Source: Candidatus Woesebacteria bacterium
GTDB taxonomy: Bacteria; Patescibacteriota; Microgenomatia; UBA8517
Direction: 5' to 3'
Assembly: GCA_020060565.1 (NCBI GenBank)
Contig: JAGVAE010000001.1
Location: 2,671 to 66,670, forward strand
DNA: 64,000 nt
Every line of letters starts with the position of its first letter. The first letter of the stretch is position 1. This document shows, in pieces, positions 19,778 to 38,031 of this stretch. Position numbers and translations under genes: made by a program. Under the pieces are notes generated by a model. That model saw only the letters and a list, made by a program, of their open reading frames with translations. It was not told the DNA's origin and made no database searches.

Positions 19778-20378
19778 AAATACACTTTCTTCCAATAGTC
19801 TTAAGTTTATTAAAGAAATCAAATCTGATAGTTTGCCAAATGATTCCTATCTAGGAGGGGGGACGGCAATTGCTCTTCAAATTGGCCACAGAAAGTCTCT
19901 GGACTTGGATTTTTTTACTCAAACTCAATTTAATGAGACTCAATGGCAACAAAAGTTGGAAGAAGACATTGGGTTTGACCTGATTCAAAAAGATTGGCAG
20001 ACATTAGTTGGAAGCGTGCAAGATATCAAGTTTTCTCTTTTTTATTATAAACATGCCTTGATTGATAAAACTAAGGATTATTACAATATTAAATTAGCCT
20101 CACTTGAAGATTTATCTGCAATGAAATTGGACACTGTCATTTCCAGGGGAACAAGGCGGGATTTAATAGATATCTATTTCCTGGCACAAAAATTTTCCAT
20201 TCCTGGGATGTTTGAATTCTATGATAGAAAGTTTGGAAACTTTAAAGACCGTGAGATTATGATCAAAAAAGCTCTTATTTATTTTGAAGACGCAGAGAAG
20301 GATGAGACCCCTGATATGCTTATTCCTTTCGATTGGAATGAGTTAAAAACATTCTTCAAAAAGGAAATTGAACTTTAA
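19770..20378 (+). CDS. short AbiEii-like nucleotidyltransferase (DUF1814-type)
   Basis: YLGGGTAIALQIGHRKSLDLDFF, the same NTase motif as the other AbiEii copies. At 202 aa it is short for the family. Confidence 0.6.
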   Translation: MFENTLSSNSLKFIKEIKSDSLPNDSYLGGGTAIALQIGHRKSLDLDFFTQTQFNETQWQQKLEEDIGFDLIQKDWQTLVGSVQDIKFSLFYYKHALIDKTKDYYNIKLASLEDLSAMKLDTVISRGTRRDLIDIYFLAQKFSIPGMFEFYDRKFGNFKDREIMIKKALIYFEDAEKDETPDMLIPFDWNELKTFFKKEIEL

Positions 20379-20394
20379 ATAGGTTGTAAGTAAG

Positions 20395-20465
20395 GGCTTG
20401 TAGGTAAGTGGTATACCGTATCATTCGCATTGATAAATCGGCGGTTCGATTCCGCCCAAGTCCAC
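20395..20465 (+). tRNA. tRNA-like element with a CGC (Ala-type) anticodon and a defective acceptor stem; probable tRNA pseudogene or att-site remnant
   Basis: By hand it folds as GGGCTTG-TA-GGTA/AGTGGTA/TACC-G-TATCA/TTCGCAT/TGATA-AATC-GGCGG/TTCGATT/CCGCC-CAATCCA-C. The D, anticodon and T arms are canonical (T-loop TTCGATT), but acceptor pairs 1:72 (G:A) and 4:69 (C:T) are mismatched. Confidence 0.4.
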
Positions 20466-21196
20466 TATTGTAATTTTGACTTCAGTTTTTGGATGAGTAG
20501 ATTCTTCAAATTTTTTGCAATTTCTCTTTGTGATCTGGGTAAAAATTGTGTTAAATCCATATCTAGTTTGGCTTGAGGATAGGATTCAATCTTTTTTAAT
20601 AAATCTGAGATATTAACATCCTTTTTAAGAGGAATTCCTTTTTCCAGTAGAAACCAGACATCAAAAGAATCCCTTCCTTTATTTCGATCCAGAAGAGCCT
20701 CAATTTTTTCTGCAAGAATTTCCTTATTTGAAAAATGTGATATTAAAGGAAACATGGGGATTGGGAATTTGGTTATTAGGGGAGAAACTACAATCTCTGG
20801 TGTATTTTTGATTTGGGTAAAATCCAAACGAATAGTTAAGGGGAACTTAAATCCAACTGGCTGATATTTTATGCGGTAACGGATACCGTTTTTGCCAGAA
20901 TACAAAAGAAGTATTTGCATTTTTGGCATCTCTTTTTGTATGGCTTGTTCCAACTTTTCCAATATTTGTTTAATCTGTTCTTTGTTGTAGGTGGTAGAGA
21001 AATCTAGATCTTCTGAGAATCGTGAGGAACCCAACAGCAATCTAATAGCTGTTCCACCCTTGAAATAAATTTTATTTGCTTTTGCATCTTGGTAAAGATA
21101 ACTCAAGAATAAAAGCTGAAAATGTTCGCGTATGATAGTGAAAGTATCTATTTGATAGTCTTTTGCTAGAGCATCTATTTGTTCTTTAGTAATCAT
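20465..21196 (-). CDS. AbiEii/AbiGii-family nucleotidyltransferase toxin
   Basis: YFKGGTAIRLLLGSSRFSEDLDFS motif; 243 aa. Its stop codon abuts the 3' end of the tRNA-like element. Confidence 0.75.
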   Translation of the reverse strand: MITKEQIDALAKDYQIDTFTIIREHFQLLFLSYLYQDAKANKIYFKGGTAIRLLLGSSRFSEDLDFSTTYNKEQIKQILEKLEQAIQKEMPKMQILLLYSGKNGIRYRIKYQPVGFKFPLTIRLDFTQIKNTPEIVVSPLITKFPIPMFPLISHFSNKEILAEKIEALLDRNKGRDSFDVWFLLEKGIPLKKDVNISDLLKKIESYPQAKLDMDLTQFLPRSQREIAKNLKNLLIQKLKSKLQ

Positions 21197-21783
21197 TTGA
21201 TGATTTTCTTAATAATCTTAGACATCTTTTTATTATCAAATCTTCTAGTGTAAATAACAAGCTTTTGCCTATCAATTCCAGATAATTCCATTTCATCAAA
21301 ATCTAAATTCCGCAATCCCTTTAGTCCTAAATAAATATAATCCAGAAGTGCCTTTTCGGGGTCGGCAATTAAAAAGTCATCTTTTTTTTCGTACCCCCAA
21401 TATAACTTGTTTGCTATTTGTGAATATTGGAACTCCTTTTGTTGAATATTGATATTTTTACTTTTTTTGACAGATATGGATGTTATTTGGTAGGGGAAAC
21501 CAGTAATTATTCCATAAAATGATAGTGCAGATTCGAGAGAAATGTAGGAGGGTTGGAGGGTAAAATTAGCTATTAGAAAGTCATCTGGCGGATTAAGTAA
21601 AAAACTGTATTTACCATTTGTTAATTTCTGGATTAGACCTTTTTTTTCCAGTCTTTGAATCCTTTTGTATAGGTTCAAACTATTTGAAATATCAAACAAT
21701 CTTCCAAAATCTGTTAATGAAAATAGAGAAATTTGTTTTTCTTGCAAAACTTTAATAATATCGGTTGCAGAATACGTTCCCAT
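21193..21783 (-). CDS. AbiEi-type antitoxin (winged-helix)
   Basis: N-terminal wHTH (LYKRIQRLEKKGLIQKLTNGKYSF). Its stop overlaps the toxin start by 4 nt (ATGA). It resembles the 9069-9644 protein (SYISLE...L motif). Confidence 0.7.
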   Translation of the reverse strand: MGTYSATDIIKVLQEKQISLFSLTDFGRLFDISNSLNLYKRIQRLEKKGLIQKLTNGKYSFLLNPPDDFLIANFTLQPSYISLESALSFYGIITGFPYQITSISVKKSKNINIQQKEFQYSQIANKLYWGYEKKDDFLIADPEKALLDYIYLGLKGLRNLDFDEMELSGIDRQKLVIYTRRFDNKKMSKIIKKIIK

Positions 21784-21833: not shown

Positions 21834-23873
21834 TTATTGTGTTGCAGCTGGGGGAGTAGCTTCTTCGGGAAGCTCAATTGGAGGTTTTACATTTGATGGC
21901 TCAATCGCTTGAGGGGCTTGTAAGTTGTCAGTTTCCTCACTTGTTTTTGCAGGCTTGTTTTTATTTAGTTCATCCAGAGTGCTTTTTGCAAGTTTATAAT
22001 CTTCTGAATCATTGGGAACCAAACTTATAACATTATTAATTGATGTAATTGCATTGTCATAATCTTTCTTGGCTTGATAGGCGATTGCTAAATTGTAATG
22101 GGCATTGGCAAGATTACTTTTGGCAAGAACTGCAAGTTTAAATGTATCAATTGCATCATCATATCTACCCAGAGCGTAATAAACGCCGCCTAGAGAGATT
22201 CTAAGGGATGGATTTGTTGGATCAAGCGCAACGGCTTGATTGTATGTTTGAATAGCAAATTGATCAGCTCCTGTTGCAAAAGGCATAATGCTTCTATAAA
22301 TTTGCGCCAGTATTTCCCAATTTCCAGATCTTGCTGGGTTTAATGTAACCGTAGCTTTTCCTTCATTGATAGCTTCTTGAACAAGTTGGGTAATTGTTTC
22401 TTTATCAGTATCTGTGACCTCAGTTTTTGAGGCCAGAGATTGAGCTAATGCCATGTCAATCTGGGCTAAGGAAGCATGATATCTGTCCACGGTTGGATTT
22501 TGTTTAACAGCAGCCACAATTGCATCGTATGTAGTTTTAGCATCATTTTTAGCTAAAGCCTCAAGAGCTTTTGTGTAATTGGCCTCAGCTCTGATCCAGC
22601 CGCTTGCAACAAAGAAGAAAACCCCTAAAGCTACTGCAAAAGGCAAACAAATAAGAACAACTGCCGATTTTGATGACGACTCCGCTAAGAGATTTACATT
22701 TTTATTTTCAGATTCAGAAATTATGGCAAGCAAAACAAACAGAATTGTTATTAGAGCAGGGGCAATGGGGAAAATTGCAAAAAGAACCAAGGTGATAATA
22801 GCTGGTAGAAATTTGATATCAAATTTCCTAGAAACAAACTTATAAAGAACAATGAAAAGAACTGCAAAAGCCAATATTCCTGCAAATCCAAGCTCGGAAA
22901 TGGCTGTCATGTAATAATTAGTGGCTGTAGTGAATCTAACTTGCCAAAGATCCGAAGCATTGTATGATACTGGTCTAAATCTATTGAATGCCGTCAAATA
23001 ATTTCCAGGTCCTACCCCCCAAATAGGGCTTACTTTAAGTGTATCAACCGCGATTTGCCAAGATGTATTCAAATCTGGAAGCTTAGGACTTTGGGGCTGT
23101 CCTGGAAGTATGTTTTTACCAAGAATAATCATTCCCAAAATTATTACTCCAGCAGAAACTCCTGCAAAAAGTTTATATACATTATCTTTTTGTTTAAAAA
23201 TAAATAGTGCTGCAATGGTTAATGCAGCTAACATATAGACAACTGCAGGTAAACTTCCACCCATGGGGTTAAAGGTTACGTCTTTTACAAAAGCGGGGAG
23301 TTGGGGAATTTTTGTTAACACTCCAATTTGTGCAAAAAGAACGACAACAGAAAGAAGAACTCCAGAAATTACCACCGCAAAAGATATTCCTTCTTTATCC
23401 TCTGCTTTTAATTGGTTAATTAAGAAATAGAGAAGTGCCGATGCTCCTACAATGGTTGCGGCTCCCGGGAAAAAGAAAGCTTCCATTTTATTAGGAGTTG
23501 CCAAAAACCCTGATGCTATATAAGAAGTTGCCACTAATAGTATAGGTATATCAAATTTTCCAGCCTTAAAACTTACAGACCCTTTTATAACAGATTCAAC
23601 CATCCAAAGGATTATGGCAAGACCAACAACTACTGATAGGAGAATAGTTTTAGGTAGGGTATACGTAGCCGAAGCAAAAGAGAAAACAAAAACAGGATAC
23701 AAAACAACTAAGGTGTAAAGAAGATATTTTTTGATTGTTTCTATGGCTTTAATCATATCATTCCAAGCTAAGTCAGTATTAAATATTTTACCTCTATTGT
23801 CAATAGCGCTTTGCTGCAAAGTATAACTAAATATATATAAATATATACTTTGATATATTAAAGTATCATTCAA
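21834..23873 (-). CDS. O-antigen ligase-like (Wzy_C/PglL-type) polytopic membrane protein with C-terminal TPR repeats
   Basis: At least 10 predicted TM helices. SPIWGVGPGNYLTAF, the loop typical of O-antigen ligase / O-oligosaccharyltransferase families. A C-terminal ~230 aa with TPR-like repeats (YNQAVALDPTNPSLRISLGGVYYALGRYDDAIDTFK..). Confidence 0.7.
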   Translation of the reverse strand: MNDTLIYQSIYLYIFSYTLQQSAIDNRGKIFNTDLAWNDMIKAIETIKKYLLYTLVVLYPVFVFSFASATYTLPKTILLSVVVGLAIILWMVESVIKGSVSFKAGKFDIPILLVATSYIASGFLATPNKMEAFFFPGAATIVGASALLYFLINQLKAEDKEGISFAVVISGVLLSVVVLFAQIGVLTKIPQLPAFVKDVTFNPMGGSLPAVVYMLAALTIAALFIFKQKDNVYKLFAGVSAGVIILGMIILGKNILPGQPQSPKLPDLNTSWQIAVDTLKVSPIWGVGPGNYLTAFNRFRPVSYNASDLWQVRFTTATNYYMTAISELGFAGILAFAVLFIVLYKFVSRKFDIKFLPAIITLVLFAIFPIAPALITILFVLLAIISESENKNVNLLAESSSKSAVVLICLPFAVALGVFFFVASGWIRAEANYTKALEALAKNDAKTTYDAIVAAVKQNPTVDRYHASLAQIDMALAQSLASKTEVTDTDKETITQLVQEAINEGKATVTLNPARSGNWEILAQIYRSIMPFATGADQFAIQTYNQAVALDPTNPSLRISLGGVYYALGRYDDAIDTFKLAVLAKSNLANAHYNLAIAYQAKKDYDNAITSINNVISLVPNDSEDYKLAKSTLDELNKNKPAKTSEETDNLQAPQAIEPSNVKPPIELPEEATPPAATQ

Positions 23874-23918: not shown

Positions 23919-26900
23919 TTACTGTACTTGTACTATCCACCAATTGAACTTTACATCAATATCGATAGGATTCGTAAAACCGACTACAAATTGTCCATTC
24001 TCTTTACTTTTTACATACAAAACATTGTTAAGAGTTGGGGAGGTAGGGGTTACATAGACCAAAGTTAGATCTGTAACTTTGGGATTTTTGATGATTATCT
24101 CGCTTGTTTCTGCAGGAACAGTTGCCTGTCCAATCATTGAATTTGTAGTAATAACTCCATCTATAATAGTGCCTGAGACTGTCGCGTCGGAAGCGGCAAC
24201 AATTAGTTCGGGGGTGGTAACAGAATTAAGTGTTGCTGATCCTGTTGCATTGATTATTTTGGCATTAAGCTCTAAAGTTGTAATTTTTCCTGCAACATAC
24301 AAGTTTCCAGCCATTCTCATGTTTCCTTGGGTATCAATTGAAATAAGCCCTCCCATAATTTCAACTGGTGCCATGGCGAGAGATTGAATTTGGAGTGGGG
24401 CAGAAAGACTATTAATAGTATTGCCGTTAAGTCCAATTACCAAGTCGCTTCCTAGGGTTAAGGAATCTGCAATGGAAACTGAGCTCATTGCAGCATTACC
24501 TGTTACAAATAAATCATTTGTAATAAGTTCTGCTATATTTGCACTTCCACTTGCAGTTAAATTGGCTCCTGCAGTTGCAGTAAAAAGAAGAGATTGATCT
24601 GCTGACACTTGGGCAAGTAAAGCTTCAATTTCATCAATGTTTTGTGATCTGACGACTCCACTAAATGAGGCATTACCCATATTGTCAATTGAGGCTACTT
24701 CTGACCCTTCTGAGTTTTGAATTGCAAATTTACCTGATGGAGTAGCTTCCGACCCAATTCTTACTGTTACATCTGTTTCATCAGCAAGAGGGGAGATAAG
24801 TGGGGTTTGAATCCTCTGGGCTATTAATTTATCAGTATCAACTACACCTGCTTTGATACTGGCAATGAGCGCCTGGCTGAAGATTCCAATGTTATTTATT
24901 GTTTCCCCTGTAGCATCTTTAATTTCGTATGCAATTCCGGCCGCATTTACTTTTGCATTTAATAAGTAGGCATTTATATCAGAAAGGATTGGAGTTAAAG
25001 AACTTCCGTTTCCTATAAAAATCATTACATTGTCTTTTTGGTATGTTGGATCCCAAGGTTCGAGAGCGGTTCCAATTGATTTTTCACCCAATACTGCTTT
25101 TTTAGCACGTCCTGGGGTAGAGGAGGAGGTGATTGGATCTCCTGTTTTAATTGCTGCCGAGTCTGTTGCAACTTTGACAGGAACTCGTCCAACAAGAGCC
25201 AGAAGTCTTCTATCTTCAGCTTCAATTCCCAAGGTTTGACCTGCTTTGGTTGAAATTACACCAATAAGTCCAGGGTCACGAATTCCATTTGACTTTCTAA
25301 GAATTGGTACTCCGTAATCGTCCAAGTTGCCACTAACCGAGACTACATCTCCTGAAACAATATCTTGATTGTCTACTCCATAATACTCAGCCAAGTCAGC
25401 TCCGTATACAACTGCGTCAAGCCTAAGTTCCTGATTTTGGCCAGTGTAGTTATATAACCTGACATTATTTGCATCTGTTTGAGTTATTTTGTAGCTGTTG
25501 TTATAACTAAACTGAACATTGTTTACCTGGGGCTGGAAACTTGTATTGGTGGTAGTAAATATTGCTCTATACTGCAAGTAATTGTTGGGGGTTGAGACAA
25601 TTGGTGAACCACTACTTACAGTCATAGCTTTTTCAGCTTTGAAATTATCAAAGTGAATTGTATTCCATGGGTTATTCAAGTTTGTTACTCTAAGTTTGGT
25701 AACACCGTCCTTAGAAGTTGAAACTATATCCGACAAATCCCAATATACTTTTTGCCAAGTACTTGTGGCGTCAATTGTTACAGTTTCTTCTTGTTCTGTT
25801 CCTGCAGCTTCTCCAAAACCAAGCTTTACAGTATTTCCAGATGAGGTTGCATATACCCAAGCAGTTAAGTAGTCATATCCAGAGATGTCAGTTGCACCAA
25901 TAGTTGCTTCTGCGTAACCTCCTCCTTGGGCGGTGTTAACAAATTGAGTTGTGTTTCCCGCAGTTCCTTCATCTTCATCTTCAAATTGATCTACATTCCT
26001 TGTTACTGTGCCATCAGCAACTGTTGCACTAGATCCTGTCCAATCTGTGTGGGTGTTGGCATCTTGAAGGGAAAGGTAATTGGTTGAGGCTATCGCAGGT
26101 TTCCAAGCTTCCCATGTTCCATCAGTTGGATTGGTTGAATTTCCAGTCCTTGTTTGGAATTCTACTTTGCCCCAAGCAGAAGGGGTAGCTTCCCATCTAA
26201 GATCACTTAATGAAACTGCGTTTGGTGTACTAATTACTCCCGAATGATACAAACCATATGGATAGTATGGTTGAACTGTATAGGCTGCAGTGGGGGAGTT
26301 GGTTGAACCTGTATAAGAGGTTGTGTAGTAAATAGCTGTACGTCCTTTGCCTCCCGCACCACCCGCAACAGGTAAACTAGCTCCTCCCGCACCACCCGAT
26401 CCATTTGTTGCAGATACTAAGTTTGTACCTAAAGTAACCGTACCAGCAGATAATTTAACAGATCCTCCAGCTCCACCTCCACCTCCAGCACTCCAATTTG
26501 AACCTGCACTACCGTTTGCACCATTTGACGAGACGGTTCCGCTTACTGTAACACTTGCTGCTGAGATTGTAACGATTCCTCCTCCCGCACCTCCAAGTCC
26601 ACGGGTATCGGAAGAATACTGTCCTGCTGCACCTCCACCCGACCCGAACATAAGATCGGCAAGTGCTGCATCTCCATAAGTTCCACCACCACCCCCACCT
26701 CCAGCTCCTGATGCACCTCCATTACCTGAGGTATTGGTTCCTCCATTTGATCCATTATCTCCTCCATAACCATAAGTTCCGTAACCACCACCTCCACCTG
26801 CGCGACCTCCAGAGTTTTGATCTCCTAATCCCCCTCCTCCTGATCCTCCAAGGGCGGCAGAACCTGTGCCTCCTGCAGGATCTCCACCACCTCCACCACC

Positions 26901-29900
26901 ACAGTATCCATTTGCACCTGAAGCATTGTGTCCACCTCCACCTCCAGCAGCCCCTGCGGATCCATTAACTCCTGATGTTCCTCCAGCTCCGCCTAGTCCG
27001 CAGAAAGCTTCTCCTCCGTTACCACCACCATAACCTCCTGCACCACCAGTTGTTGCACCTCTATAACCCATAGCGTTGGCATGAATATTACCACTTATAG
27101 AAACGGCTCCAGTTGCTCTAAAGAAAATCACTCCACCTTTAGCTCCGTCAAAAGCTGTTGGATAGAAATTTTGAGATGCATTAACGGTTACAGTTGTATA
27201 GTTGGGGACTCTTTGAAGCATCACTCTTTGTGTTCCTGCGGTGGTACCAAGATTGGAATCATCAGTTGCATTATCACCATAGAATTTTGTTTTGGATTTG
27301 GTGAAGTTAACAGTATTGGAGGAAACCGATGAAACCCTAAGTGTTTCGTAATTTCCTACATTTACATATGCACTAGTTGCTCCTTGAAGATTGATAAGCA
27401 AAACTTCATCTCCTACTGTTAAACAACCTGCAGATGGGGTAGTGGAAAGGGTTGCTGCGGTTGAGGTTAGGGAACTTACTGAATAATTTACAGCATCTCC
27501 GCCGTCAGCACAGGAGCGGGCACTAATTAAGCTTGTGGCGTTTATACTAGTGTTTCCTGATACAGTAATGGCGCCATCTGCTCCTGTTCCTGTATCAACT
27601 GATGGGGCAAGTTCAATATCAGTTAGTCTGGTTTGGGTTCTAACTTTTCCTGATGCTGAAGCATTATCAAATTCATTCTGAAGTGACTGCTTCATTGTTA
27701 CTGATTTATCTGTTATTTTTTCCCACAGGCTTGTAATAGTATTTTTGACCCAACCGGTGAGACTTATATCATTTGTGTTTTGATTGTGGGCTACTTCAAC
27801 ATAACCAAGATTGGCAATGTTTGCTGCAGTTGTTGCGTATTTAGTCATATCCATTGCAATCCTATGGAAAGCACTATCTCCAGTTCGAAGATAAAGATGG
27901 TCAACATCTGTGTCGTAATAAATAGTTCCTTCTGCAGTATTTGTAGTTGAGGCCATACCTGCTAGAGTGATTGCTCCATCGTTGTGAACTGTAAATTTAG
28001 ATACACCCGAAGCGGAAGCTGTAAATATATCCCCACCTTTTTGTTGATTAACCATTAGAGCTGCTTGACCAACATTTGCGGTGTTATCTACCAACCAGCT
28101 ACTAGCCCCTAATGTGTTTGATGTTGTTGTTGGTGCAGAAGAGAAAACTATAGTTGCAGTTCCTGCTGAGTTGGCGATTATTCCACTATCAAGATATAAG
28201 TTTCCATCAAGTTCCAAATCACTACTAATTAGAAGATCGCTTCCATCTGTTATTCCTCCTGAATGTCCTGTGGTATTGGTTCCAAATCTATTGTATGCGG
28301 TTGCTGAAGAGTTGTTTACCTGTAGGTTTGAGGTAAAAAGACCTGTTGTGGCTGTCATAGTTCCCGAACAAGCAAGATTGCCGTTAGATCCATCTACTGT
28401 ACAGCCAGTGTCGGTAGATCCACCACCGAACAGTATAGATGAAGCACCACTTCCAGTTGGCCCTAAGTTTATTGTAGTTGCTGCTCCTCCAACATTAAGA
28501 GATGTAGTTGTGGTATTGAAAAGTTCAGCTGTCGTAGCCCCAGAATTAAGATCTCCAGCAATTGTAATATTTGATCCATTGGCAGTTAAAGAGGTGATAC
28601 CTCGAGAATTAATAACTACATTGCCTGTTGTTGCACTCCCTAGGGTAAGATTGGCCATATTTGTTGTTGAAAGATTTCCGTTTCCATTTATGTAGGTAGC
28701 AACATTGGCTGTCGTTCCTGCAATACTTGCAGTTGGTGTTCCTGAGGTAACTCCAGTGAATGCAAACTTGGCAGAAGCTGTTGCAATTCCTCCGATTAAG
28801 ACATCAACGGTTTGGCTATTGGGGTATATTGTTCCTGTTGCATCATCTAGTGTCCAGGTTCCACCTCCTCCTGCTCCATTGTCAACCCAACTTAACTGTC
28901 CTGCAGCATCACTAGAAAGAACATATCCTGAAGAAACTGCATCAGCATCAGGCCATGTGTAGGTTATCCCATGCAGCTGAGTTGTCCCTATGTTTACTAA
29001 GTTTCCAGAAGCATCGATTCTTTGTGTCCCTGCAGTTGCACCAGTGTAAATTCCGTTAACTGCATTAACTGTTCCAGGGGCTCTAAAGTCTGAAGGAATT
29101 GAAAGAGTAATATCTCCTGTTCCTGCACTTGCTGTAATTTGATTTGCAGTTCCAGCCAAAGAACTTACGTAGTTCCCAGTTGTGTGAGTTCCAAGAACTA
29201 TCTTTCCCCAAGATGGAGCAGCTCCAACACCTCCTGAGATTAGAGCATTTCCAACTGCAATATCAGCAAGTTGTGAGAGTGTGTTTGTACTGCTGGCATA
29301 TATCAAATCTCCTGTTGTATATGAATTAAGGCCAGTTCCTCCTTGATCAGTTCCAAGTACTCCGGTTGAGGTCAATGTTTTGTTTGCATCGGTAAATACT
29401 CCTTTTGATGCAGTCAGCCCTGTATCTGTTATGGATCCTGCAGAGAATGGGGAAGAGGAGATTACATTTCCAGTTGTTGCACCTCCAAGTGTAATATCTT
29501 TCATATCAGTATTTGCCAAGTTTCCAGTGGAGGTTAAATATGTTCCTGAAATACTAGCAGTTGGTGTTCCTGATGTAACTCCAGTGAAGGCAAATTTGGC
29601 AGATGTTGTTGCATCTGATCCTATTAGAACATCCATACTGTTGTTCTTTGGAAATAGTGCTCCTTCTGCTGCAGTCCAGTAAATTGAAGAAGCAACAGCA
29701 TCTGCAGGATCCACCCAAGCTAGGGTTGAAGATGCTCCTGTTCCTGTTGATTGAAGTACATAATTTGCAGTGGCACTCCCAGGCCAGGTGTATGTAACTC
29801 CGTTTATCTGAGTAGTACCAATATTGGTTAGATTACCTGATGCATCAATCCTTTGTGTTCCTGCTGTTGCACCAGTGTAAATTCCGTTAACTGCATTAAC

Positions 29901-32900
29901 TGTTCCTGGTGCTCTAAAGTCAGATGGGACACTTAGGGTTATGTCTCCAGTTGATCCTGAAGCTGTAATTTGATTTGCTGTACCTGCTAAACTTGATACA
30001 TAATTTCCAGTTGTATGAGTTCCAAGGGTAATTTGTCCCCAAGATGGAGCTGTCCCAATTCCTCCTGAAAGAAGTACATTTCCAACTGCTACATCACTAA
30101 GTTTGGCAAGGGAAGTGGTGGAGTCTGCATACAACAAATCTCCAACTGTATATGACGACTGTCCAGTTCCTCCATATGCTGCTCCAATAGCTGTTCCATT
30201 CCAGGTTCCACTTGTTATTGGACTTCCAAAATCAACTCCTCCAGTTGTTGCTCCTCCAATTGTTAAGTGGTTCATGTTTGTTGTGGCTAGTGTTCCATTA
30301 CCTGTGAGATATGTGGCTACATCAGATGTAGAACCTGAAATACTTGCTGTTGGTGTTCCTGAAGAAACCCCAGTGAATGCAAACTTGGCAGATGAGGTTG
30401 CATCTGATCCTATTAAAACGTCTATAGTGTTATTTTTAGGGAAGAGGACTCCATTTACCGTGCTTTGATCCCAAAATACTGAAGATGCCGTAAGGGCAGA
30501 GGTCCAAGAAAGTCCTCCCGTGCTATTTGTTGAAAGAACTTGGCCATTGGTTCCATCTAAGGCTGGCCAGGTATATGTAATTCCGTTTAATTGGGTTGTT
30601 CCAATGTTTACTAAATTTCCAGATGCATCAATTCTTTGTGTTCCTGCAGTTGCACCAGTATACAAACCATTGACTGCATTAACTGTTCCAGGAGCACGAA
30701 AATCAGAAGGAATTGAAAGTGTTATATCCCCAGTTGATCCTGAAGCTGTAATCTGATTAGCTGTACCCGCAAGGGAACTTACATAGTTTCCAGAGGTATG
30801 TGTACCTAATGTTACTTTTCCATATGATGGTGCTGCTCCAATTCCACCGGAAAGAAGAACATTTCCTGTAGCTACATCAGCAAGTTTGGCAAGGGAAGTA
30901 GTGGTATCTGCATAAAGCATGTCTCCGATTGTGTACGAAGAAAATCCCGTTCCGCCTTGATCTACTCCAATCGAACCTGTAGAAGTAAGTTGTTTTGATC
31001 CGTCTGTAAATACAACTTTATTGGCAGTAAGGCCACTGTCTATTAAGTTTCCTATAGTCAAGGTGTTAGTTGTTGATGCGCCTCGTGTAGTTACAGAATC
31101 TAAGGTATCAGCTTCAGTTGCGGTTAGATTTAGAGTTCCACCTAATGAAACCGCTCCGCCTCCTGACAATATTCCTCCTGCATTTATTGTTATGGCAGAA
31201 TTTGCCAGTTCGGAATTGGCTACACAACCTGAACATGTAAGGTCGGTTGCTGAAATTGTTCCTGTTCCACTTGTAGAAAGACTTGCTCCAGTTCCTACCA
31301 CCATTGTGGCTGTAGTATTAGTTCCTGAAAGAAGTCCTGAGAAGGGGACAGTTGCTGCGGTTCCAACGGAAACCCAAGCTGAACCATTCCAGAAATATAT
31401 GATGTTTTCTGTGGAGTTATAGACCATGGATCCTGTTCCAACATTTGTGGGATTGGTTACAAAATTGCCTAGCTTTAATTGACCATCAAATTGAGCGTTT
31501 CCATTTGAAACTAAAAGAGCCATGCCTGTTCCAAAAGCGTTGTATCTATTAAGAACTAAAGTTGAATAGCTGGTGTTGGGTGTTACATCTCGCTCGTCTA
31601 ATGTCATAGTAACTGCATTGTTTAATGCTGTGCCTGTTTTGGTAACAGAGGCAAAGTCTCCTGGATTTTGATTTATGACAAAGTTACCTGAGTTTTGAGA
31701 ATAGCCTGTTATGTTTTGTAATGCTCCAGTTGAACTTATTCTTGATGTGCCTCCTGTTTGGATTGAGCCTCCAGCATTGATATTTCCAGTTGCCATGGTA
31801 TTACCCAATGCATCAACTGAAAAACGAGTGATTGGTTTTGATCCATTTTGTAATCTTATGAGATCATAGCCAGTTGCATTATTTGCCACTATTCCGTAAT
31901 AAAGAGAACCACTGTTTAGGTTAGGGGCTTGGGCATTAAGAAAGTTACCTTTCGACCCCTCAAAAAGAAAATGGGCAATACCTTTGCCGTCTGGGTTAAT
32001 CTCGATGTTTCCATTCGTGCCATCAACCGTTTTTAACGTAAGAGCTTGCCCTTGAACTAAAAGATTTCCTGCCTTTGCATTTATGGCAGGGGATTCACTG
32101 GCTAAATTAAGTGAACCATTTTCATCAATCACTGGAACGGTTAGTGCGTTTGCTCCAACTTTTGGATCTGCTGGCAAGTAACCTCCAAGATTTGCCGCAA
32201 TATTTGCGGTAGAAACTGGAATTCTGGCATTTGCTGTTGCGGAAGCTATCTCTGGTTCTACAAATAGCTTTTGATTCTCAAAAAAGAGGTTGCTTGGAAC
32301 TCTATCTAAAGATATCAAAGCAGATCCTGTATCATCAGTTGTTATTGTTTGAGGTTCACTTGTGTATAGAGCTGTTCCTCCGACTTCCGAATTATAGACT
32401 TTGAATGATAAGGTTTGAGAACCAACCTTTGGAGTTCCGTCTTCGTTTGACAATTTTAAATTTGCGTAAAGATTCCAGGAGCCATTTGACGCATTATCTG
32501 CGGAGATTGAACCTGACGGGGTTGAGTTGGGAAGTATGTTTTGATTATCTAAAGTAATCTTGGCTGTGGGGTTATTTTCAACCCCTGCTGCAAAGTTTCT
32601 TATGAACTCAATTGGGGATCCAAGCTTCCAAGAAAGAAGAAAAATAAGAACAATAAGACCCAATGTTGTGCCCGTTAGTAACCAAGTTCTAGCCGAAATT
32701 CTGCCTTTGGGTTTTGAGATTGAATTAGTAAATGTTTGTGGCATGGGGTTGGTTTCAATGTGGCCCTTCTCTTCCGCCCAGCCAAAGAATTTATTTAAAG
32801 AAGCTACTTTTCTTTTGGCTGTAGCAGGAGATGCGATTCTAGCCATCTCTTCTTGATACTTTTGAATTATTTGGGGAGATATTGTGGGTAGAGTAGACAT
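23919..32900 (-). CDS. giant (2993 aa) single-pass membrane surface protein with a cytoplasmic integrase-type SAM-like N-terminal domain, tandem repeat modules and a Gly-rich block
   Basis: N-terminal ~60 aa (IIQKYQEEMARIASPATAKRKVASLNKFFGWAEEKGHIETNP) resembles a phage-integrase core-binding domain. One TM helix follows (TWLLTGTTLGLIVLIFLLSW), then about 2900 aa of Ser/Thr/Gly/Asn-rich beta-type sequence. Three ~270-aa repeats (..GTHTxGNYVSSLAGTANQITASGSTGDITLSxPSDFRAPGTVNAVNG.YTGATAGTQRIDASGNL.NIGTTQ.NG.TYTWP..). A GGxGG-type Gly-rich block. Confidence 0.8.
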   Translation of the reverse strand: MSTLPTISPQIIQKYQEEMARIASPATAKRKVASLNKFFGWAEEKGHIETNPMPQTFTNSISKPKGRISARTWLLTGTTLGLIVLIFLLSWKLGSPIEFIRNFAAGVENNPTAKITLDNQNILPNSTPSGSISADNASNGSWNLYANLKLSNEDGTPKVGSQTLSFKVYNSEVGGTALYTSEPQTITTDDTGSALISLDRVPSNLFFENQKLFVEPEIASATANARIPVSTANIAANLGGYLPADPKVGANALTVPVIDENGSLNLASESPAINAKAGNLLVQGQALTLKTVDGTNGNIEINPDGKGIAHFLFEGSKGNFLNAQAPNLNSGSLYYGIVANNATGYDLIRLQNGSKPITRFSVDALGNTMATGNINAGGSIQTGGTSRISSTGALQNITGYSQNSGNFVINQNPGDFASVTKTGTALNNAVTMTLDERDVTPNTSYSTLVLNRYNAFGTGMALLVSNGNAQFDGQLKLGNFVTNPTNVGTGSMVYNSTENIIYFWNGSAWVSVGTAATVPFSGLLSGTNTTATMVVGTGASLSTSGTGTISATDLTCSGCVANSELANSAITINAGGILSGGGAVSLGGTLNLTATEADTLDSVTTRGASTTNTLTIGNLIDSGLTANKVVFTDGSKQLTSTGSIGVDQGGTGFSSYTIGDMLYADTTTSLAKLADVATGNVLLSGGIGAAPSYGKVTLGTHTSGNYVSSLAGTANQITASGSTGDITLSIPSDFRAPGTVNAVNGLYTGATAGTQRIDASGNLVNIGTTQLNGITYTWPALDGTNGQVLSTNSTGGLSWTSALTASSVFWDQSTVNGVLFPKNNTIDVLIGSDATSSAKFAFTGVSSGTPTASISGSTSDVATYLTGNGTLATTNMNHLTIGGATTGGVDFGSPITSGTWNGTAIGAAYGGTGQSSYTVGDLLYADSTTSLAKLSDVAVGNVLLSGGIGTAPSWGQITLGTHTTGNYVSSLAGTANQITASGSTGDITLSVPSDFRAPGTVNAVNGIYTGATAGTQRIDASGNLTNIGTTQINGVTYTWPGSATANYVLQSTGTGASSTLAWVDPADAVASSIYWTAAEGALFPKNNSMDVLIGSDATTSAKFAFTGVTSGTPTASISGTYLTSTGNLANTDMKDITLGGATTGNVISSSPFSAGSITDTGLTASKGVFTDANKTLTSTGVLGTDQGGTGLNSYTTGDLIYASSTNTLSQLADIAVGNALISGGVGAAPSWGKIVLGTHTTGNYVSSLAGTANQITASAGTGDITLSIPSDFRAPGTVNAVNGIYTGATAGTQRIDASGNLVNIGTTQLHGITYTWPDADAVSSGYVLSSDAAGQLSWVDNGAGGGGTWTLDDATGTIYPNSQTVDVLIGGIATASAKFAFTGVTSGTPTASIAGTTANVATYINGNGNLSTTNMANLTLGSATTGNVVINSRGITSLTANGSNITIAGDLNSGATTAELFNTTTTSLNVGGAATTINLGPTGSGASSILFGGGSTDTGCTVDGSNGNLACSGTMTATTGLFTSNLQVNNSSATAYNRFGTNTTGHSGGITDGSDLLISSDLELDGNLYLDSGIIANSAGTATIVFSSAPTTTSNTLGASSWLVDNTANVGQAALMVNQQKGGDIFTASASGVSKFTVHNDGAITLAGMASTTNTAEGTIYYDTDVDHLYLRTGDSAFHRIAMDMTKYATTAANIANLGYVEVAHNQNTNDISLTGWVKNTITSLWEKITDKSVTMKQSLQNEFDNASASGKVRTQTRLTDIELAPSVDTGTGADGAITVSGNTSINATSLISARSCADGGDAVNYSVSSLTSTAATLSTTPSAGCLTVGDEVLLINLQGATSAYVNVGNYETLRVSSVSSNTVNFTKSKTKFYGDNATDDSNLGTTAGTQRVMLQRVPNYTTVTVNASQNFYPTAFDGAKGGVIFFRATGAVSISGNIHANAMGYRGATTGGAGGYGGGNGGEAFCGLGGAGGTSGVNGSAGAAGGGGGHNASGANGYCGGGGGGDPAGGTGSAALGGSGGGGLGDQNSGGRAGGGGGYGTYGYGGDNGSNGGTNTSGNGGASGAGGGGGGGTYGDAALADLMFGSGGGAAGQYSSDTRGLGGAGGGIVTISAASVTVSGTVSSNGANGSAGSNWSAGGGGGAGGSVKLSAGTVTLGTNLVSATNGSGGAGGASLPVAGGAGGKGRTAIYYTTSYTGSTNSPTAAYTVQPYYPYGLYHSGVISTPNAVSLSDLRWEATPSAWGKVEFQTRTGNSTNPTDGTWEAWKPAIASTNYLSLQDANTHTDWTGSSATVADGTVTRNVDQFEDEDEGTAGNTTQFVNTAQGGGYAEATIGATDISGYDYLTAWVYATSSGNTVKLGFGEAAGTEQEETVTIDATSTWQKVYWDLSDIVSTSKDGVTKLRVTNLNNPWNTIHFDNFKAEKAMTVSSGSPIVSTPNNYLQYRAIFTTTNTSFQPQVNNVQFSYNNSYKITQTDANNVRLYNYTGQNQELRLDAVVYGADLAEYYGVDNQDIVSGDVVSVSGNLDDYGVPILRKSNGIRDPGLIGVISTKAGQTLGIEAEDRRLLALVGRVPVKVATDSAAIKTGDPITSSSTPGRAKKAVLGEKSIGTALEPWDPTYQKDNVMIFIGNGSSLTPILSDINAYLLNAKVNAAGIAYEIKDATGETINNIGIFSQALIASIKAGVVDTDKLIAQRIQTPLISPLADETDVTVRIGSEATPSGKFAIQNSEGSEVASIDNMGNASFSGVVRSQNIDEIEALLAQVSADQSLLFTATAGANLTASGSANIAELITNDLFVTGNAAMSSVSIADSLTLGSDLVIGLNGNTINSLSAPLQIQSLAMAPVEIMGGLISIDTQGNMRMAGNLYVAGKITTLELNAKIINATGSATLNSVTTPELIVAASDATVSGTIIDGVITTNSMIGQATVPAETSEIIIKNPKVTDLTLVYVTPTSPTLNNVLYVKSKENGQFVVGFTNPIDIDVKFNWWIVQVQ
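26340..27060 (-). repeat. Gly-rich low-complexity coding block (GGxGG repeats) inside the giant gene
   Basis: Translated as GGAGGYGGGNGG...GGGGGGDPAGGTGS...GGGGGGGTYG. GGN codons make the segment locally GC-rich and create long spurious antisense ORFs (the Pro/His-rich 26347-26679 and 26663-26968). Confidence 0.6.
28200..30900 (-). repeat. three tandem ~800-bp DNA repeats inside the giant gene
   Basis: Near-identical segments recur at about 28985-29225, 29805-30050 and 30585-30830 (for example ...gcatcaat(c/t)ctttgtgttcctgc(a/t)gttgcaccagt(g/a)ta(a/c)a...), with periods of about 830 and 780 bp. They match the three protein-level repeats. Confidence 0.7.
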
Positions 32901-32905
32901 AGAAT

Positions 32906-33421
32906 TTAGTATTTAGAATTTAGAATTTCATGGTTAGTCTCTAACCATGTCAAGAACTGTTTGATATCACTTAGGTAGTTTTTGATTGTGCTAGAAGAAA
33001 CCTTTTCGGCCTCAAGAAAAGCTCTGAAGTCGTTGACGACTGGATCCATATTTGGTTTTTCTTTAGCTCCAATTCCTACGTTTTCAATGCCACTCATAAA
33101 GTCAAGATCAATTATTTGTGTTGCAGTTAAGAAGCGTGAGAGATGCCTAAGGGTAGAGAGCCTGCGATTAACAGTTTTAACAGGAACTGAATTTTCAGTC
33201 ATGTAGTTTTTGTAACTTTTTGCCAGATCAAAAGTTAAAAACGGAACGACCTCACTCAATGATTCAACGTAAGAGCCAAATGATCTGATCTTAAGAATTG
33301 CCCAACCAATGAAGTGGCTTAAATCGCTTCTGTAGTTCTTGTGGGATTTAGGTGAAATACCAAGAGATTCAAGATATTTTACGAATTCGTTTTTGATGGA
33401 GTCTAATTGTTTTTCGGGCAT
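32906..33421 (-). CDS. orphan protein of two tandem phage-integrase N-terminal SAM-like (core-binding) domains, with no catalytic domain
   Basis: Two ~80-aa repeats with the ..KNYRSDLSHFIGWA.. and ..KNYLSDIKQFLTWLE.. pattern typical of tyrosine-recombinase N-terminal domains. 171 aa in total, with no R..HxxR..Y catalytic region. Its stop lies 5 bp upstream of the giant gene. Confidence 0.55.
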   Translation of the reverse strand: MPEKQLDSIKNEFVKYLESLGISPKSHKNYRSDLSHFIGWAILKIRSFGSYVESLSEVVPFLTFDLAKSYKNYMTENSVPVKTVNRRLSTLRHLSRFLTATQIIDLDFMSGIENVGIGAKEKPNMDPVVNDFRAFLEAEKVSSSTIKNYLSDIKQFLTWLETNHEILNSKY

Positions 33422-33961
33422 TTTATTTCAAGGCTAAATTATACTGATTATACTTATTAGACTATTATTAAAAGATTTTAGGAACCTGTCAAGAGGCTAA
33501 ACGGCCAATAATCTAATAAGCAAATAATCAAATAAACAAATAAATTTCACGGTGTATGTAGTATAATTACCGCATAATATTTACGCATATATCTAATGGC
33601 TTAGTGGATAATATGATAACTTATAACTTAAATTTTAACGTATTTTGCCTGTATTTTTTGTGCCTAAATATTATTTGCGGGAAAGTGCGGAGATATATAT
33701 GATTTTAGTAGCACTGCGGAAATCGATATTGTGTTATGCCTAATATCGTATATCATAATATATCAAATTGTATAACCTGCTTTATTTTTATACTTTTATG
33801 TGTGGAGATTATTATTGTTTTTATCGAGTACATTATAAGATTGCAATTGGCAGATTAGACTACTGAGCGCTAGGAAATATTATTGGTGATTTGTTCCGAA
33901 AAATTGGGGATTATTTTTTTGTGTAGCTTACTGTTGCAATTTTACCCTTTTCGGATAAAAT

Positions 33962-36943: not shown

Positions 36944-38029
36944 TTGATCAAAAATTTAGTAATTATTTCTCTTCTAATTTTAGTAATTTTCATCCGTTAT
37001 ATAACAGCTAGACCCATCTATAAAGACGGCGATAGGGTAAGAATTACAACTTCTGTTTTATCCGATCCAATTAAATATTCGACCAGTGTTTATATAAAAG
37101 TTAGGGACTTAAAAGTTTATTTACCAAAAGACACAGATATTTCTTATGGTGACAAAATTATTGTGGAGGGGGTAGTTAATGACGACCCCAACAGTGGAGT
37201 TAAAAAACTAACTAACACAAAGCTTAAAAAGGTGGAGAAAGAAAAAACCGTTTTGTCTTCTTTTAGAAACTCAATAATTTCTTTTTATCAACGAGTTTTG
37301 CCGGAGCCCTCGGGGGGACTAATGAGCGGAATAATAATTGGAGCAAAAGGAGCACTATCAACTGAATTTTATGATTTAACTAAAAAAGTAGGAGTTGCCC
37401 ATGTTGTCGTTGCATCGGGGACAAATATTTCTTTTGTAGTTTCTTTCTTAATGGGAACATTAACATTGGTACTTTCTAGAAGAAAAGCGATATTGTTTGT
37501 TATAGTTGGTATTGTTTTGTATCTATTTATATCAGGGTTTGATGCTCCACTAATAAGAGCGGCTATCATGGCTTCACTTCTTTTTGTGGCTCAGAGAAGT
37601 GGAAGACTTTCTTCTTCTTGGAGGATTTTGGTTTTGACTGCCTCGGCTATGCTTATTTATAACCCTGAGTGGACAAACGACATTGGTTTTATCCTTTCTT
37701 TTGTTTCAACTGCAAGTATTATGCTTTTTGAGAAAAGAATTAGAGTTTTTTTAAAAAAGGTGCCAGAAATCTTAAGAGAAGGGCTTTCTACCTCTTTTGC
37801 TGCTCAAATTGGGGTTTCTCCTATCATTTTTGTTACTTTTGGTCAGTTTAATATATTTTCCCCTTTGGTTAATGCACTTGTTCTGTGGACCATTCCGTAT
37901 ATTATGGTTTTGGGTGTGGTTGGAGGAATGATGGGACTTATTTTCCCAATAATTGGAAAAATGGTTCTTTGGATGGCTTATCCTTTATTATGGTGGTTCG
38001 TACATATCGTTACATTATTCAACTTTTAG
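36944..38029 (+). CDS. comEC: ComEC/Rec2 competence channel, N-terminal part (DUF4131 OB-fold plus Competence TM domain)
   Basis: Polytopic membrane region with a ComEC 'Competence'-domain pattern (GGLMSGIIIGAKGAL..HVVVASGTNISFV..). It ends at the TAG at 38027-38029. The beta-lactamase domain continues in another frame. Confidence 0.7.
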   Translation: MIKNLVIISLLILVIFIRYITARPIYKDGDRVRITTSVLSDPIKYSTSVYIKVRDLKVYLPKDTDISYGDKIIVEGVVNDDPNSGVKKLTNTKLKKVEKEKTVLSSFRNSIISFYQRVLPEPSGGLMSGIIIGAKGALSTEFYDLTKKVGVAHVVVASGTNISFVVSFLMGTLTLVLSRRKAILFVIVGIVLYLFISGFDAPLIRAAIMASLLFVAQRSGRLSSSWRILVLTASAMLIYNPEWTNDIGFILSFVSTASIMLFEKRIRVFLKKVPEILREGLSTSFAAQIGVSPIIFVTFGQFNIFSPLVNALVLWTIPYIMVLGVVGGMMGLIFPIIGKMVLWMAYPLLWWFVHIVTLFNF

Positions 38030-38031
38030 TT

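What the first reader, a model, noticed from the sequence alone, without database searches (positions are those of the whole stretch)
23919..33421. Giant surface protein with a cytoplasmic integrase-type SAM-like N-terminus, preceded by an orphan tandem-SAM-like protein
The 171-aa product of 32906-33421 consists only of two tandem copies of the ~80-aa N-terminal SAM-like core-binding domain of tyrosine recombinases (KNYRSDLSHFIGWA / KNYLSDIKQFLTWLE). It has no catalytic domain. Five bp downstream, the 2993-aa protein opens with a third copy of the same domain (SLNKFFGWAEEKGHIETNP) on the cytoplasmic side of its single TM helix; about 2900 aa of extracellular repeat sequence follow. Placing a DNA-arm-binding module of site-specific recombinases at the intracellular N-terminus of a giant adhesin-like protein, alongside a catalytically dead two-domain paralogue, is not an arrangement I can assign to any described system. 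It suggests the domain has been recruited for secretion, anchoring or partner recognition. A programmed DNA rearrangement is also possible, given the three internal 800-bp tandem repeats.
Basis: partly seen in the sequence, partly recalled or inferred. Interest (0 to 1): 0.75.

Follow-up and report, generated by a model that had tools for sequence, protein, structure and literature searches.

The report
Split recombinase-type head on giant surface protein
A small protein that databases call an "integrase" and the giant surface protein encoded 5 bp downstream are two pieces of one conserved protein of Microgenomates (CPR) bacteria, whose intracellular head is made of two catalysis-free recombinase DNA-binding (core-binding) domains, the second of which is cut in half between the two genes.

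Summary
Both ORFs are real: 171 aa at 32906-33421(-) and 2993 aa at 23919-32900(-), 5 nt apart. The domain count is wrong. ORF1 holds one complete SAM-like/core-binding (CB) domain plus only helices 1-2 of a second. The giant protein starts with helices 3-4 of that same second domain, then one TM helix. Joining the two pieces gives a single full-length Pfam match.

This is a true gene fission. It is not an assembly error, a frameshift or a broken integrase.
- 42 related loci break at the same alignment position, with the giant ORF in frame 0, +1 or +2, each with its own ATG. Some have whole genes inserted between the pieces.
- About 33 other Microgenomates loci encode the same head fused in one ORF (up to 6048 aa).
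- Both halves are under strong purifying selection (dN/dS about 0.1).
- No catalytic domain exists anywhere in the window.

A tandem GTATAAT element upstream is co-conserved with the family and is unique in the window.

The function is inferred, not shown. I favour a membrane-tethered nucleic-acid-binding head completed by ORF1 docking onto the giant's tail. I found no published description. Databases mislabel ORF1 as XerD.

The parts
33464..33492 (-). Promoter-like site: TTGACA, 17 nt, AATAAT. It is the best sigma-70-type match in the region and lies about 43 nt upstream of the ORF1 ATG.
   Evidence: 11 of 12 matches. TTGACA is invariant in 21 aligned upstream regions.
33438..33459 (-). Tandem TAAT / GTATAAT boxes, phased 9-10 nt (TAATAAGTATAATCAGTATAAT), between the promoter and the ORF1 start. 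This is a conserved cis-element of unknown role.
   Evidence: Unique in the 64-kb window. Across 1.08 Mb of related loci there are 38 matches against 3.2 expected, and 36 of them lie just upstream of the head gene, in both split and fused lineages. Alignment.
32906..33421 (-). ORF1, 171 aa: the soluble subunit, made of CB1 plus the first half of CB2. Databases call it 'site-specific recombinase XerD' or 'integrase'.
   Evidence: Hundreds of homologues of 164-181 aa. dN/dS 0.08-0.11.
33122..33391 (-). CB1: a complete SAM-like/core-binding domain (ORF1 residues 11-100). Conserved motifs are HKNYRSDL on helix 2 and NRRLSTLRH on helix 4.
   Evidence: Pfam PF02899, E 1.3e-13. Invariant columns. Fold.
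32918..33046 (-). CB2a: helices 1-2 of the second core-binding domain (ORF1 residues about 126-168; motif TIKNYLSDIKQFLTW).
   Evidence: Pfam SAM_4 profile positions 3-35 of 85 only. Module HMM positions up to 167.
32900..32928 (-). Gene junction: ORF1 stop TAA (32906-32908), a 5-nt spacer and the giant ATG (32898-32900), embedded in 4 imperfect 7-nt repeats. Deleting 14 nt would fuse the two ORFs in frame.
   Evidence: No promoter-like or terminator-like site lies between the ORFs.
23919..32900 (-). Giant ORF, 2993 aa: the membrane subunit, made of CB2b, a TM helix and an acidic (pI 4.5), Thr/Gly/Ser/Ala-rich ectodomain.
32745..32900 (-). CB2b: helices 3-4 of the second core-binding domain (giant residues 1-52; motif SPATAKRKVASLNKFFGWA).
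   Evidence: Pfam profile positions 39-82 of 83. PHROG_1 E 1e-6. The rejoined domain scores 38.9 bits. Module HMM positions 169-232. dN/dS 0.07-0.12.
32628..32687 (-). Single TM helix / signal anchor (residues 72-91, TWLLTGTTLGLIVLIFLLSW). The basic stretch on its N-side implies an N-in topology.
   Evidence: Sequence. A TM helix follows CB2 in nearly all of the 75 loci. The AF2 model of the homologue has helix 219-240.
31221..32573 (-). Conserved membrane-proximal ectodomain (residues 110-560).
   Evidence: tblastn hits in 64 of 79 loci. The AF2 model is low-confidence except for a beta-sandwich of about 75 residues.
28624..30971 (-). Three diverged tandem repeats of about 800 bp (about 265 aa each) in the variable middle of the protein.
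26464..26950 (-). Gly-rich low-complexity stretch (GGAGG-type repeats).
23922..25700 (-). Conserved C-terminal region (residues 2401-2993). The last 87 aa (23922-24182) are shared even with 365-aa 'mini' family members.
   Evidence: tblastn hits in 34 loci. P0158 versus the window: 41% identity, E 5e-17.
21834..23873 (-). Downstream gene on the same strand: Wzy_C (O-antigen-ligase-like) membrane protein with TPR repeats. It is a candidate glycosylation partner of the Ser/Thr-rich giant protein.
   Evidence: It follows the giant gene in at least 9 related loci.

Best explanation
ORF1 and the giant ORF are two adjacent cistrons of one operon. Together they encode a naturally split member of a Microgenomates-wide family of bitopic (N-in) giant surface proteins.

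Anatomy (shown): the family's cytoplasmic head has two tandem core-binding (CB, SAM-like) four-helix domains of the tyrosine-recombinase type, with no catalytic domain. A TM helix follows, then a conserved membrane-proximal ectodomain, a variable repeat-rich middle and a conserved C-terminal domain. In this genome and a large clade that includes Woesebacteria, the gene is cut in the loop between helices 2 and 3 of CB2.

Assembly (inferred): the 171-aa protein (CB1 plus helices 1-2 of CB2) docks onto the giant's cytoplasmic tail (helices 3-4 of CB2) by completing the four-helix bundle. This rebuilds the same head that the fused relatives carry.

Function (inferred from homology only): the head binds nucleic acid, most likely double-stranded DNA. 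That would link a cell-surface fibre to the chromosome or to gene control. The co-conserved tandem GTATAAT element in its own promoter/leader is the obvious candidate target. It is not a recombinase and does not rearrange DNA.
For: Split domain:
- The Pfam half-matches are complementary.
- The rejoined segment gives one full-length match above the gathering threshold.
- On a module HMM, ORF1 covers positions 2-167 and the giant covers 169-232.

Real fission:
- 42 loci break at the same model position (ORF1 ends at 156-176, the giant starts at 166-173).
- The giant ORF is in frame 0, +1 or +2 and has its own ATG. Gaps run from -47 to +1010 nt.
- Some loci hold inserted 23S_rRNA_IVP or NYN genes.

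Fused form:
- About 33 loci have the head fused, as does P0097.
- The family has 461 clusters (50% identity) at E<=1e-30, with the head always at residues 1 to about 220 of proteins up to 6048 aa.

Both halves are maintained: dN/dS is 0.07-0.12, and motifs are invariant.

Fold:
- The AF2 model of the fused homologue has pLDDT 92.2, two four-helix domains and a TM helix.

Not an integrase: a genuine XerD-like query finds only ORF1's CB part in the 64 kb.

DNA-binding plausibility:
- Every characterised close structural relative binds DNA. This includes the catalysis-free exaptations MrpR, SroF, Ndc10 and ALOG.
- CB1 has pI 9.6 and the giant's tail pI 9.8.
- The cis-element accompanies the family in 36 loci, against 3.2 matches expected over all loci.

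Operon: one strong promoter-like site lies upstream of ORF1 and nothing lies between the ORFs.
Against: - No experiment or co-fold shows that the two halves reassemble.
- DNA binding is inferred by homology alone. Isolated CB domains of recombinases bind DNA weakly without the catalytic domain (own knowledge).
- The rejoined CB2 is nearly neutral (pI 6.95).
- The GTATAAT repeats are perfect -10 hexamers. They may simply be tandem promoters or sigma-dependent pause sites of a highly expressed long gene.
- No PDB sequence match reached significance.
- The NJ tree used to order fission and fusion events is rough.
Confidence: 0.55

Rival explanations
1. The anatomy is the same (split head, docking), but the CB-type domains serve as a protein-protein adaptor. 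They might recruit a biogenesis, export, glycosylation or cytoskeletal partner to the giant protein's tail, and they bind no nucleic acid.
For: - The head is conserved together with the TM and juxtamembrane motifs.
- A Wzy_C/TPR gene is linked downstream.
- In the Roizmanbacteria-type clade a conserved small ORF sits between the two genes and could be a partner.
- CB2 is not basic.
Against: - The best sequence and structure matches are all DNA-binding CB domains.
- The most conserved residues are the KNYxSD and NRR/KRK motifs on helices 2 and 4. These helices correspond to the DNA-facing helices B and D of recombinase CB domains (own knowledge, not tested here).
- No partner has been identified.
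Confidence: 0.27
2. The two ORFs are joined during expression into a single polypeptide. The route would be programmed frameshifting or ribosome hopping, or phase variation through slippage of the 7-nt repeats at the junction.
For: - The junction holds 4 imperfect heptanucleotide repeats.
- Deleting 14 nt would give an exact in-frame fusion...EILNS|MSTLP.
- The same layout occurs in L019 and L080.
Against: - The frame relation differs between genomes (0, +1, +2).
- Every giant ORF has its own ATG.
- Gaps reach 1 kb and hold inserted genes.
- Relatives 87-88% identical have no heptads at all.
- Copy number is 4 in all three genomes that have the repeats.
- There is no canonical slippery site.
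Confidence: 0.05
3. ORF1 is the decaying 5' remnant of a phage or Xer integrase, or the split is an assembly or sequencing artefact, and it has no function with the giant gene.
For: - Sources name ORF1 'site-specific recombinase XerD' or 'integrase'.
- Metagenome assemblies can carry frameshift errors.
Against: - Hundreds of independent assemblies give the same ORF of about 171 aa.
- dN/dS is about 0.1.
- No catalytic domain is found.
- The missing half of the domain sits on the next gene.
- Fused orthologues continue into a TM helix, not into a catalytic domain.
- The locus is syntenic next to leuS-comEA-comEC in 32-44 loci, so it is not in a mobile element.
Confidence: 0.02

Closest known systems
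Core-binding (CB / N-terminal SAM-like) domain of tyrosine recombinases (XerD 1a0p, lambda Int 1z1b/2oxo, Cre, XerA, IntI)
   Different: No catalytic domain follows. There are two CB domains in tandem, followed by a TM helix and thousands of extracellular residues. The second CB domain is encoded on two genes.
Catalysis-free, recombinase-derived DNA binders: SPbeta MrpR (8a0a), phi3T SroF (9rd5), yeast kinetochore Ndc10 (3sqi, 4aco), plant ALOG domain (8p5q)
   Different: Those proteins are soluble regulators or kinetochore proteins, and most keep a dead catalytic-domain fold. None is membrane-anchored, attached to a surface protein or split. Their roles are from my own knowledge and the PDB titles.
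ToxR/CadC/TcpP-type bitopic membrane-bound transcription regulators, and RsgI-type anti-sigma factors with large ectodomains
   Same: The topology matches: an N-terminal cytoplasmic (putative) DNA-binding or regulatory domain, one TM helix and an extracytoplasmic domain. This is the closest 'works like' model if the head binds DNA.
   Different: The DNA-binding fold differs (winged helix in ToxR; no such Pfam hit here). The ectodomain is 10-50 times larger. The two-subunit head has no counterpart. No regulatory function has been shown.
Naturally split genes of reduced genomes (for example the split reverse gyrase and alanyl-tRNA synthetase of Nanoarchaeum equitans; own knowledge)
   Same: One ancestral protein is encoded as two polypeptides that must reassemble. 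Fused orthologues exist in relatives, and both pieces are under purifying selection.
   Different: Here the cut falls inside a small four-helix domain (2+2 helices). The pieces stay adjacent in one operon. Split and fused forms are intermixed in the rough NJ tree, which suggests more than one fission or fusion event at this loop.
Giant surface proteins and adhesins of CPR and other bacteria
   Same: Size, acidic Thr/Ser/Gly-rich repeats, a variable middle and a linked glycosylation-type gene.
   Different: Described giant proteins have signal peptides, C-terminal anchors or type I secretion signals. None is reported with a recombinase-type cytoplasmic head (the giant-gene preprint mentions no integrase).

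Membership tests
Tyrosine recombinase / XerD-type integrase (the database name of ORF1) | N-terminal core-binding (SAM-like) domain | tested here: met
Tyrosine recombinase / XerD-type integrase (the database name of ORF1) | C-terminal catalytic domain (PF00589) with the RHR...Y active site | tested here: not met
   No Pfam hit in ORF1 or the giant protein. tblastn with a genuine 299-aa XerD-like protein finds only the CB part, in ORF1, within the whole window. Fused relatives go from CB2 straight into a TM helix.
Tyrosine recombinase / XerD-type integrase (the database name of ORF1) | Cognate recombination sites, or a mobile-element or dif context | not tested
   The locus is syntenic next to leuS-comEA-comEC in 32-44 loci, which argues against a mobile element. 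No site search was done.
Pfam Phage_int_SAM_1 / CB-domain superfamily | Profile match above the gathering score over the whole domain | tested here: met
   CB1: profile positions 2-81 of 83. Rejoined CB2: positions 2-82 of 83, 38.9 bits against a cutoff of 22.3. Neither half of CB2 alone covers the domain.
Pfam Phage_int_SAM_1 / CB-domain superfamily | Four-helix CB fold | tested here: met
Split-gene heterodimer (domain fission) | Two separate cistrons with their own start codons, breaking at a conserved position | tested here: met
   42 loci, frames 0, +1 and +2, gaps -47 to +1010 nt.
Split-gene heterodimer (domain fission) | Fused orthologues exist, and both pieces are under purifying selection | tested here: met
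   About 33 fused loci. dN/dS 0.07-0.12 for both pieces.
Split-gene heterodimer (domain fission) | Physical reassembly of the two polypeptides | not testable with these tools
This needs AF-multimer or biochemistry.
Programmed frameshift / recoding gene | A conserved frame relation and a slippery or recoding signal at the junction | tested here: not met
   The frame relation varies between genomes and the junction sequences are unrelated.
Phase variation by short-repeat slippage | Repeat copy number differs between close strains | tested here: inconclusive
   There are 4 heptads in WIN, L080 and L019, and none in L081 or L082. Only three genomes carry the repeats, and no read-level data were available.
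ToxR-like membrane-bound transcription regulator (considered as a 'works like' model) | Cytoplasmic N-terminal DNA-binding domain, a single TM helix and an extracytoplasmic domain | tested here: met
   Topology inferred from the sequence and the positive-inside rule. The homologue model agrees.
ToxR-like membrane-bound transcription regulator (considered as a 'works like' model) | OmpR-type winged-helix domain, and demonstrated promoter binding | tested here: not met
   No winged-helix hit. Binding cannot be tested here. This is therefore an analogy only, not membership.

The most novel reading that the evidence does not exclude
The two halves of a DNA-binding domain lie on a small soluble protein and on the cytoplasmic tail of a giant cell-surface fibre, and they form a reversible switch. 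When assembled, the tandem CB head holds DNA at the membrane, for example the co-conserved tandem GTATAAT element of its own promoter, or the nucleoid. Events at the surface, such as host contact, load or cleavage of the fibre, would release or capture the 171-aa factor. This would give ultra-small CPR cells, which are generally held to have few classical signalling systems (own knowledge), a direct surface-to-chromosome signalling or anchoring device.
Probability: 0.15. Interest if true: 0.85.

Novelty: new variant of a known kind. Interest (0 to 1): 0.62.

Why it matters
- It corrects a systematic mis-annotation. Hundreds of small "XerD/integrase" genes in Patescibacteria are not recombinases. 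They are subunits of a giant envelope protein, so counts of "integrases" and mobile elements in CPR genomes are inflated.
- It defines a large, syntenic and apparently core protein family of Microgenomates (461 clusters at 50% identity). The family has an architecture I could not find described: a recombinase-type DNA-binding head on the inside of a giant surface protein.
- It offers a clean natural case of a small helical domain cut 2+2 and kept as two genes across deep lineages, with fused and split forms side by side. This is useful for studying domain fission and for protein-complementation design.
- If the head binds DNA, it would physically couple the cell surface to the chromosome or to gene control in organisms whose host interaction is poorly understood. 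The co-conserved GTATAAT element gives an immediate, testable target.

Tried and rejected
- A MAFFT alignment mixing ORF1 homologues with giant N-termini misaligned the paralogous halves, so I dropped it. I used natural fused homologues instead.
- AF2 of ectodomain residues 100-560 gave pLDDT 53. It was not fit for a fold search.
- The afdb50 fold library was unavailable.
- PDB sequence searches with the ORF1 profile or with CB1 gave nothing significant.
- Pfam and PHROGs on five segments of the giant protein gave nothing above threshold beyond the head.
- The homologue search with giant residues 1-513 was limited by the word index to 20 mostly partial proteins.
- The exact look-up of P0001 found no contig, so the window's source record was not identified.
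- Four literature searches and one paper check found no description.
- Considered and rejected: frameshift or recoding, assembly error, integrase remnant, and a DGR or recombination role for the 800-bp repeats. See the rival explanations.
- I did not scan every window ORF with Pfam. I did not search for a reverse transcriptase near the 23S_rRNA_IVP/bAvd-like inserts.
Full report
**Observation.** The window is low-GC (about 37%) and gene-dense. On the minus strand, ORF1 (32906-33421, 171 aa) is followed by its TAA stop, 5 nt, and then a 2993-aa ORF (23919-32900).
- ORF1 matches Phage_int_SAM_1 at E 1.3e-13, but only residues 11-100 cover a whole domain.
- ORF1 residues 130-162 match just the first 35 of 85 profile positions.
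- The giant protein's residues 3-45 match only positions 39-82 of 83 of the same profile (E 0.033). A PHROG integrase profile hits residues 6-66 at E 1e-6.
- When ORF1 residues 126-171 are written in front of giant residues 1-60, Pfam returns one match over positions 2-82 of 83 (E 1.1e-9, 38.9 bits, cutoff 22.3).

The locus therefore has two core-binding (CB) domains, not three. The second is divided between the two genes after its second helix. The giant protein continues with a basic stretch and one hydrophobic helix (residues 72-91), which fits an N-in topology. An acidic (pI 4.5), Thr/Gly/Ser/Ala-rich ectodomain follows. It contains three diverged repeats of about 800 bp.

**Is the split real?** ORF1 has hundreds of homologues of 164-181 aa in Patescibacteria assemblies from independent sources. 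I fetched 79 related genomic loci and analysed them with scripts.
- In 42 loci the head is encoded in two ORFs that break at the same alignment position. ORF1 ends at module-HMM position 156-176 and the giant starts at 166-173. The HMM was built from these same sequences.
- The giant ORF is in frame 0, +1 or +2 depending on the genome. It always has its own ATG, and the gap ranges from -47 to +15 nt in the Woesebacteria-type clade.
- In other clades the gap is 68-1010 nt. In several it contains whole inserted genes: 23S_rRNA_IVP four-helix-bundle genes, an NYN gene, or a conserved ORF of 58-80 aa.

These facts exclude assembly error and any conserved recoding signal. In about 33 other loci, and in protein P0097, the same two domains are fused in one ORF that runs on into the TM helix and a long ectodomain. 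A rough NJ tree of the head intermixes split and fused clades. One fused gene is nested in the Woesebacteria-type split clade, and a Beckwithbacteria-type split clade sits among fused ones. This suggests more than one fission or fusion event at the same loop. Both pieces are under strong purifying selection. dN/dS is 0.08-0.11 for ORF1 and 0.07-0.12 for the giant's first 55 codons.

**Not an integrase.** No catalytic domain is detected in either protein. A genuine 299-aa XerD-like protein, used as a tblastn query against the whole window, matches only ORF1's CB segments. The locus lies divergent from leuS-comEA-comEC in 32-44 of the loci, so it is a stable chromosomal position and not a mobile element.

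**Structure.** The tool would not accept a concatenated sequence. I therefore modelled the natural fused homologue P0097 with an alignment of fused and split relatives.
- The model has mean pLDDT 92.2.
- CB1 comprises helices 2-11, 16-39, 56-68 and 73-92.
- A flexible linker follows.
- CB2 comprises helices 119-130, 135-154, 163-177 and 180-199.
- The TM helix is 219-240.
- The break in the window proteins maps to the loop after helix 135-154.

**The family.**
- A profile search of 1.84 billion cluster representatives finds 461 clusters at E<=1e-30. In the top 150, the head is nearly always at residues 1 to about 220, on proteins from truncated fragments up to 6048 aa.
- Record titles place the loci in Woese-, Roizman-, Beckwith-, Collier- and Levybacteria and in unclassified Microgenomates.
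- The membrane-proximal ectodomain (residues 110-560) is conserved in 64 loci. The C-terminal region is conserved in 34 loci. The middle is variable.
- 'Mini' members such as P0158 (365 aa, on a 749-kb contig) have only the head, the TM helix and the last roughly 90 residues. Those residues are 41% identical to the window protein's C-terminus.
- A Wzy_C/TPR gene follows the giant gene here and in at least 9 other loci. This suggests that the Ser/Thr-rich ectodomain is glycosylated (inference).

**A co-conserved DNA element.** Upstream of ORF1 there is a TTGACA-17-AATAAT promoter-like site. It is followed by 9-10-nt-phased TAAT/GTATAAT boxes.
- This block of about 75 nt is nearly invariant across Woesebacteria-type genomes whose proteins are only 55-70% identical.
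- It is unique in the 64-kb window.
- A relaxed pattern occurs 38 times in 1.08 Mb of loci, against 3.2 in shuffles. Of those, 36 lie just upstream of the head gene, in split and fused lineages of several classes.

The element could be an operator for the tandem CB head, tandem promoters, or sigma-dependent pause sites for a very long transcript. I cannot tell which.

**Mechanism.**
- Shown: the anatomy, the fission, its conservation and the fold.
- Inferred: ORF1 docks on the giant's tail by completing CB2. The head binds nucleic acid, as do all characterised close relatives of the fold, and so links a surface fibre to DNA. The main rival is a pure protein-adaptor role.
- Rated unlikely: recoding or phase variation. 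The 7-nt repeats at the junction are intriguing, because a 14-nt deletion would fuse the ORFs in frame. However, they are absent from relatives 87-88% identical, and their number is constant where they occur.

**Novelty.** Four full-text searches and a check of the giant-gene preprint found no description. Sources label these proteins 'XerD' or 'integrase'. I rate this as a new variant of a known kind: reuse of a recombinase CB domain, here membrane-tethered on a giant surface protein and naturally split. Interest is 0.62.

Noticed in passing
window 33438-33492 (-); also L001-L020, L025, L027, L035, L038, L043, L044, L049, L056, L060, L062-L064, L069, L070, L076, L079, just upstream of the head gene: A conserved promoter/leader element: TTGACA, then TAATAAT, then tandem GTATAAT boxes phased 9-10 nt. 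It occurs 38 times in 1.08 Mb of loci against 3.2 in shuffles, and 36 of the matches are at this one position. Its role is unknown (operator, tandem promoters or sigma-pause sites).
   Followed up: partly
L013:2869-3261, L015:10497-10892, L023:10503-11153, L031:10618-10998, L033:2998-3579, L028:4035-4601: In several lineages a 23S_rRNA_IVP (bAvd-like four-helix-bundle) gene or an NYN-domain gene sits exactly between the two halves of the split gene. The split point may be a recurrent insertion site, or an insertion may have caused the fission. I did not look for a reverse transcriptase or DGR nearby.
   Followed up: partly
L026:4526-4711, L027:10468-10680, L032:1438-1680, L036:3972-4160, L040:10528-10695, L071:10444-10620, L072:10453-10629, L073:4525-4701: A conserved small ORF (58-80 aa, motif FDPAxEGxPY) with no Pfam match lies between the ORF1-type gene and the giant gene in the Roizmanbacteria-type clade. 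It may be a third component.
   Followed up: partly
window 32900-32928: Four imperfect 7-nt repeats straddle the stop and start codons. The peptide ILNS is encoded twice, 14 nt apart, so a 14-nt deletion would fuse the two ORFs in frame. The layout is shared with L019 and L080 but not with L081 or L082.
   Followed up: yes
window 12817-18729 (-): A second giant ORF (1970 aa) with an N-terminal TM anchor and a GDSL lipase/acylhydrolase domain near its C-terminus. It has no CB head and no homologue in the 79 related loci.
   Followed up: partly
window 19770-21783: An AbiEii toxin gene (20465-21196, -) overlaps by 4 nt an upstream 196-aa ORF with no Pfam hit, probably its antitoxin. A second, partial AbiEii-like ORF (19770-20378, +) abuts tRNA-Ala (20394-20465). 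The cluster looks like an insertion between the tRNA and the Wzy_C/TPR gene.
   Followed up: no
window 36944-38823 (+): ComEC appears as two overlapping ORFs in different frames: the Competence domain at 36944-38029 and the Lactamase_B domain at 37885-38823. This may be another split or frameshifted gene in this genome.
   Followed up: no
P0158 (365 aa), P0147 (420 aa): Complete 'mini' family members have only the tandem CB head, the TM helix, a short spacer and the C-terminal domain of about 90 aa. This suggests that the head and the C-terminal domain are the functional core and that the giant middle is an expansion.
   Followed up: partly
L006, L007, L012, L014 and many others (record titles): Many of the MAG records carrying this Microgenomates locus are titled 'uncultured Gammaproteobacteria' or 'uncultured Pseudomonadales'. 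These look like placeholder or wrong taxonomic labels.
   Followed up: no
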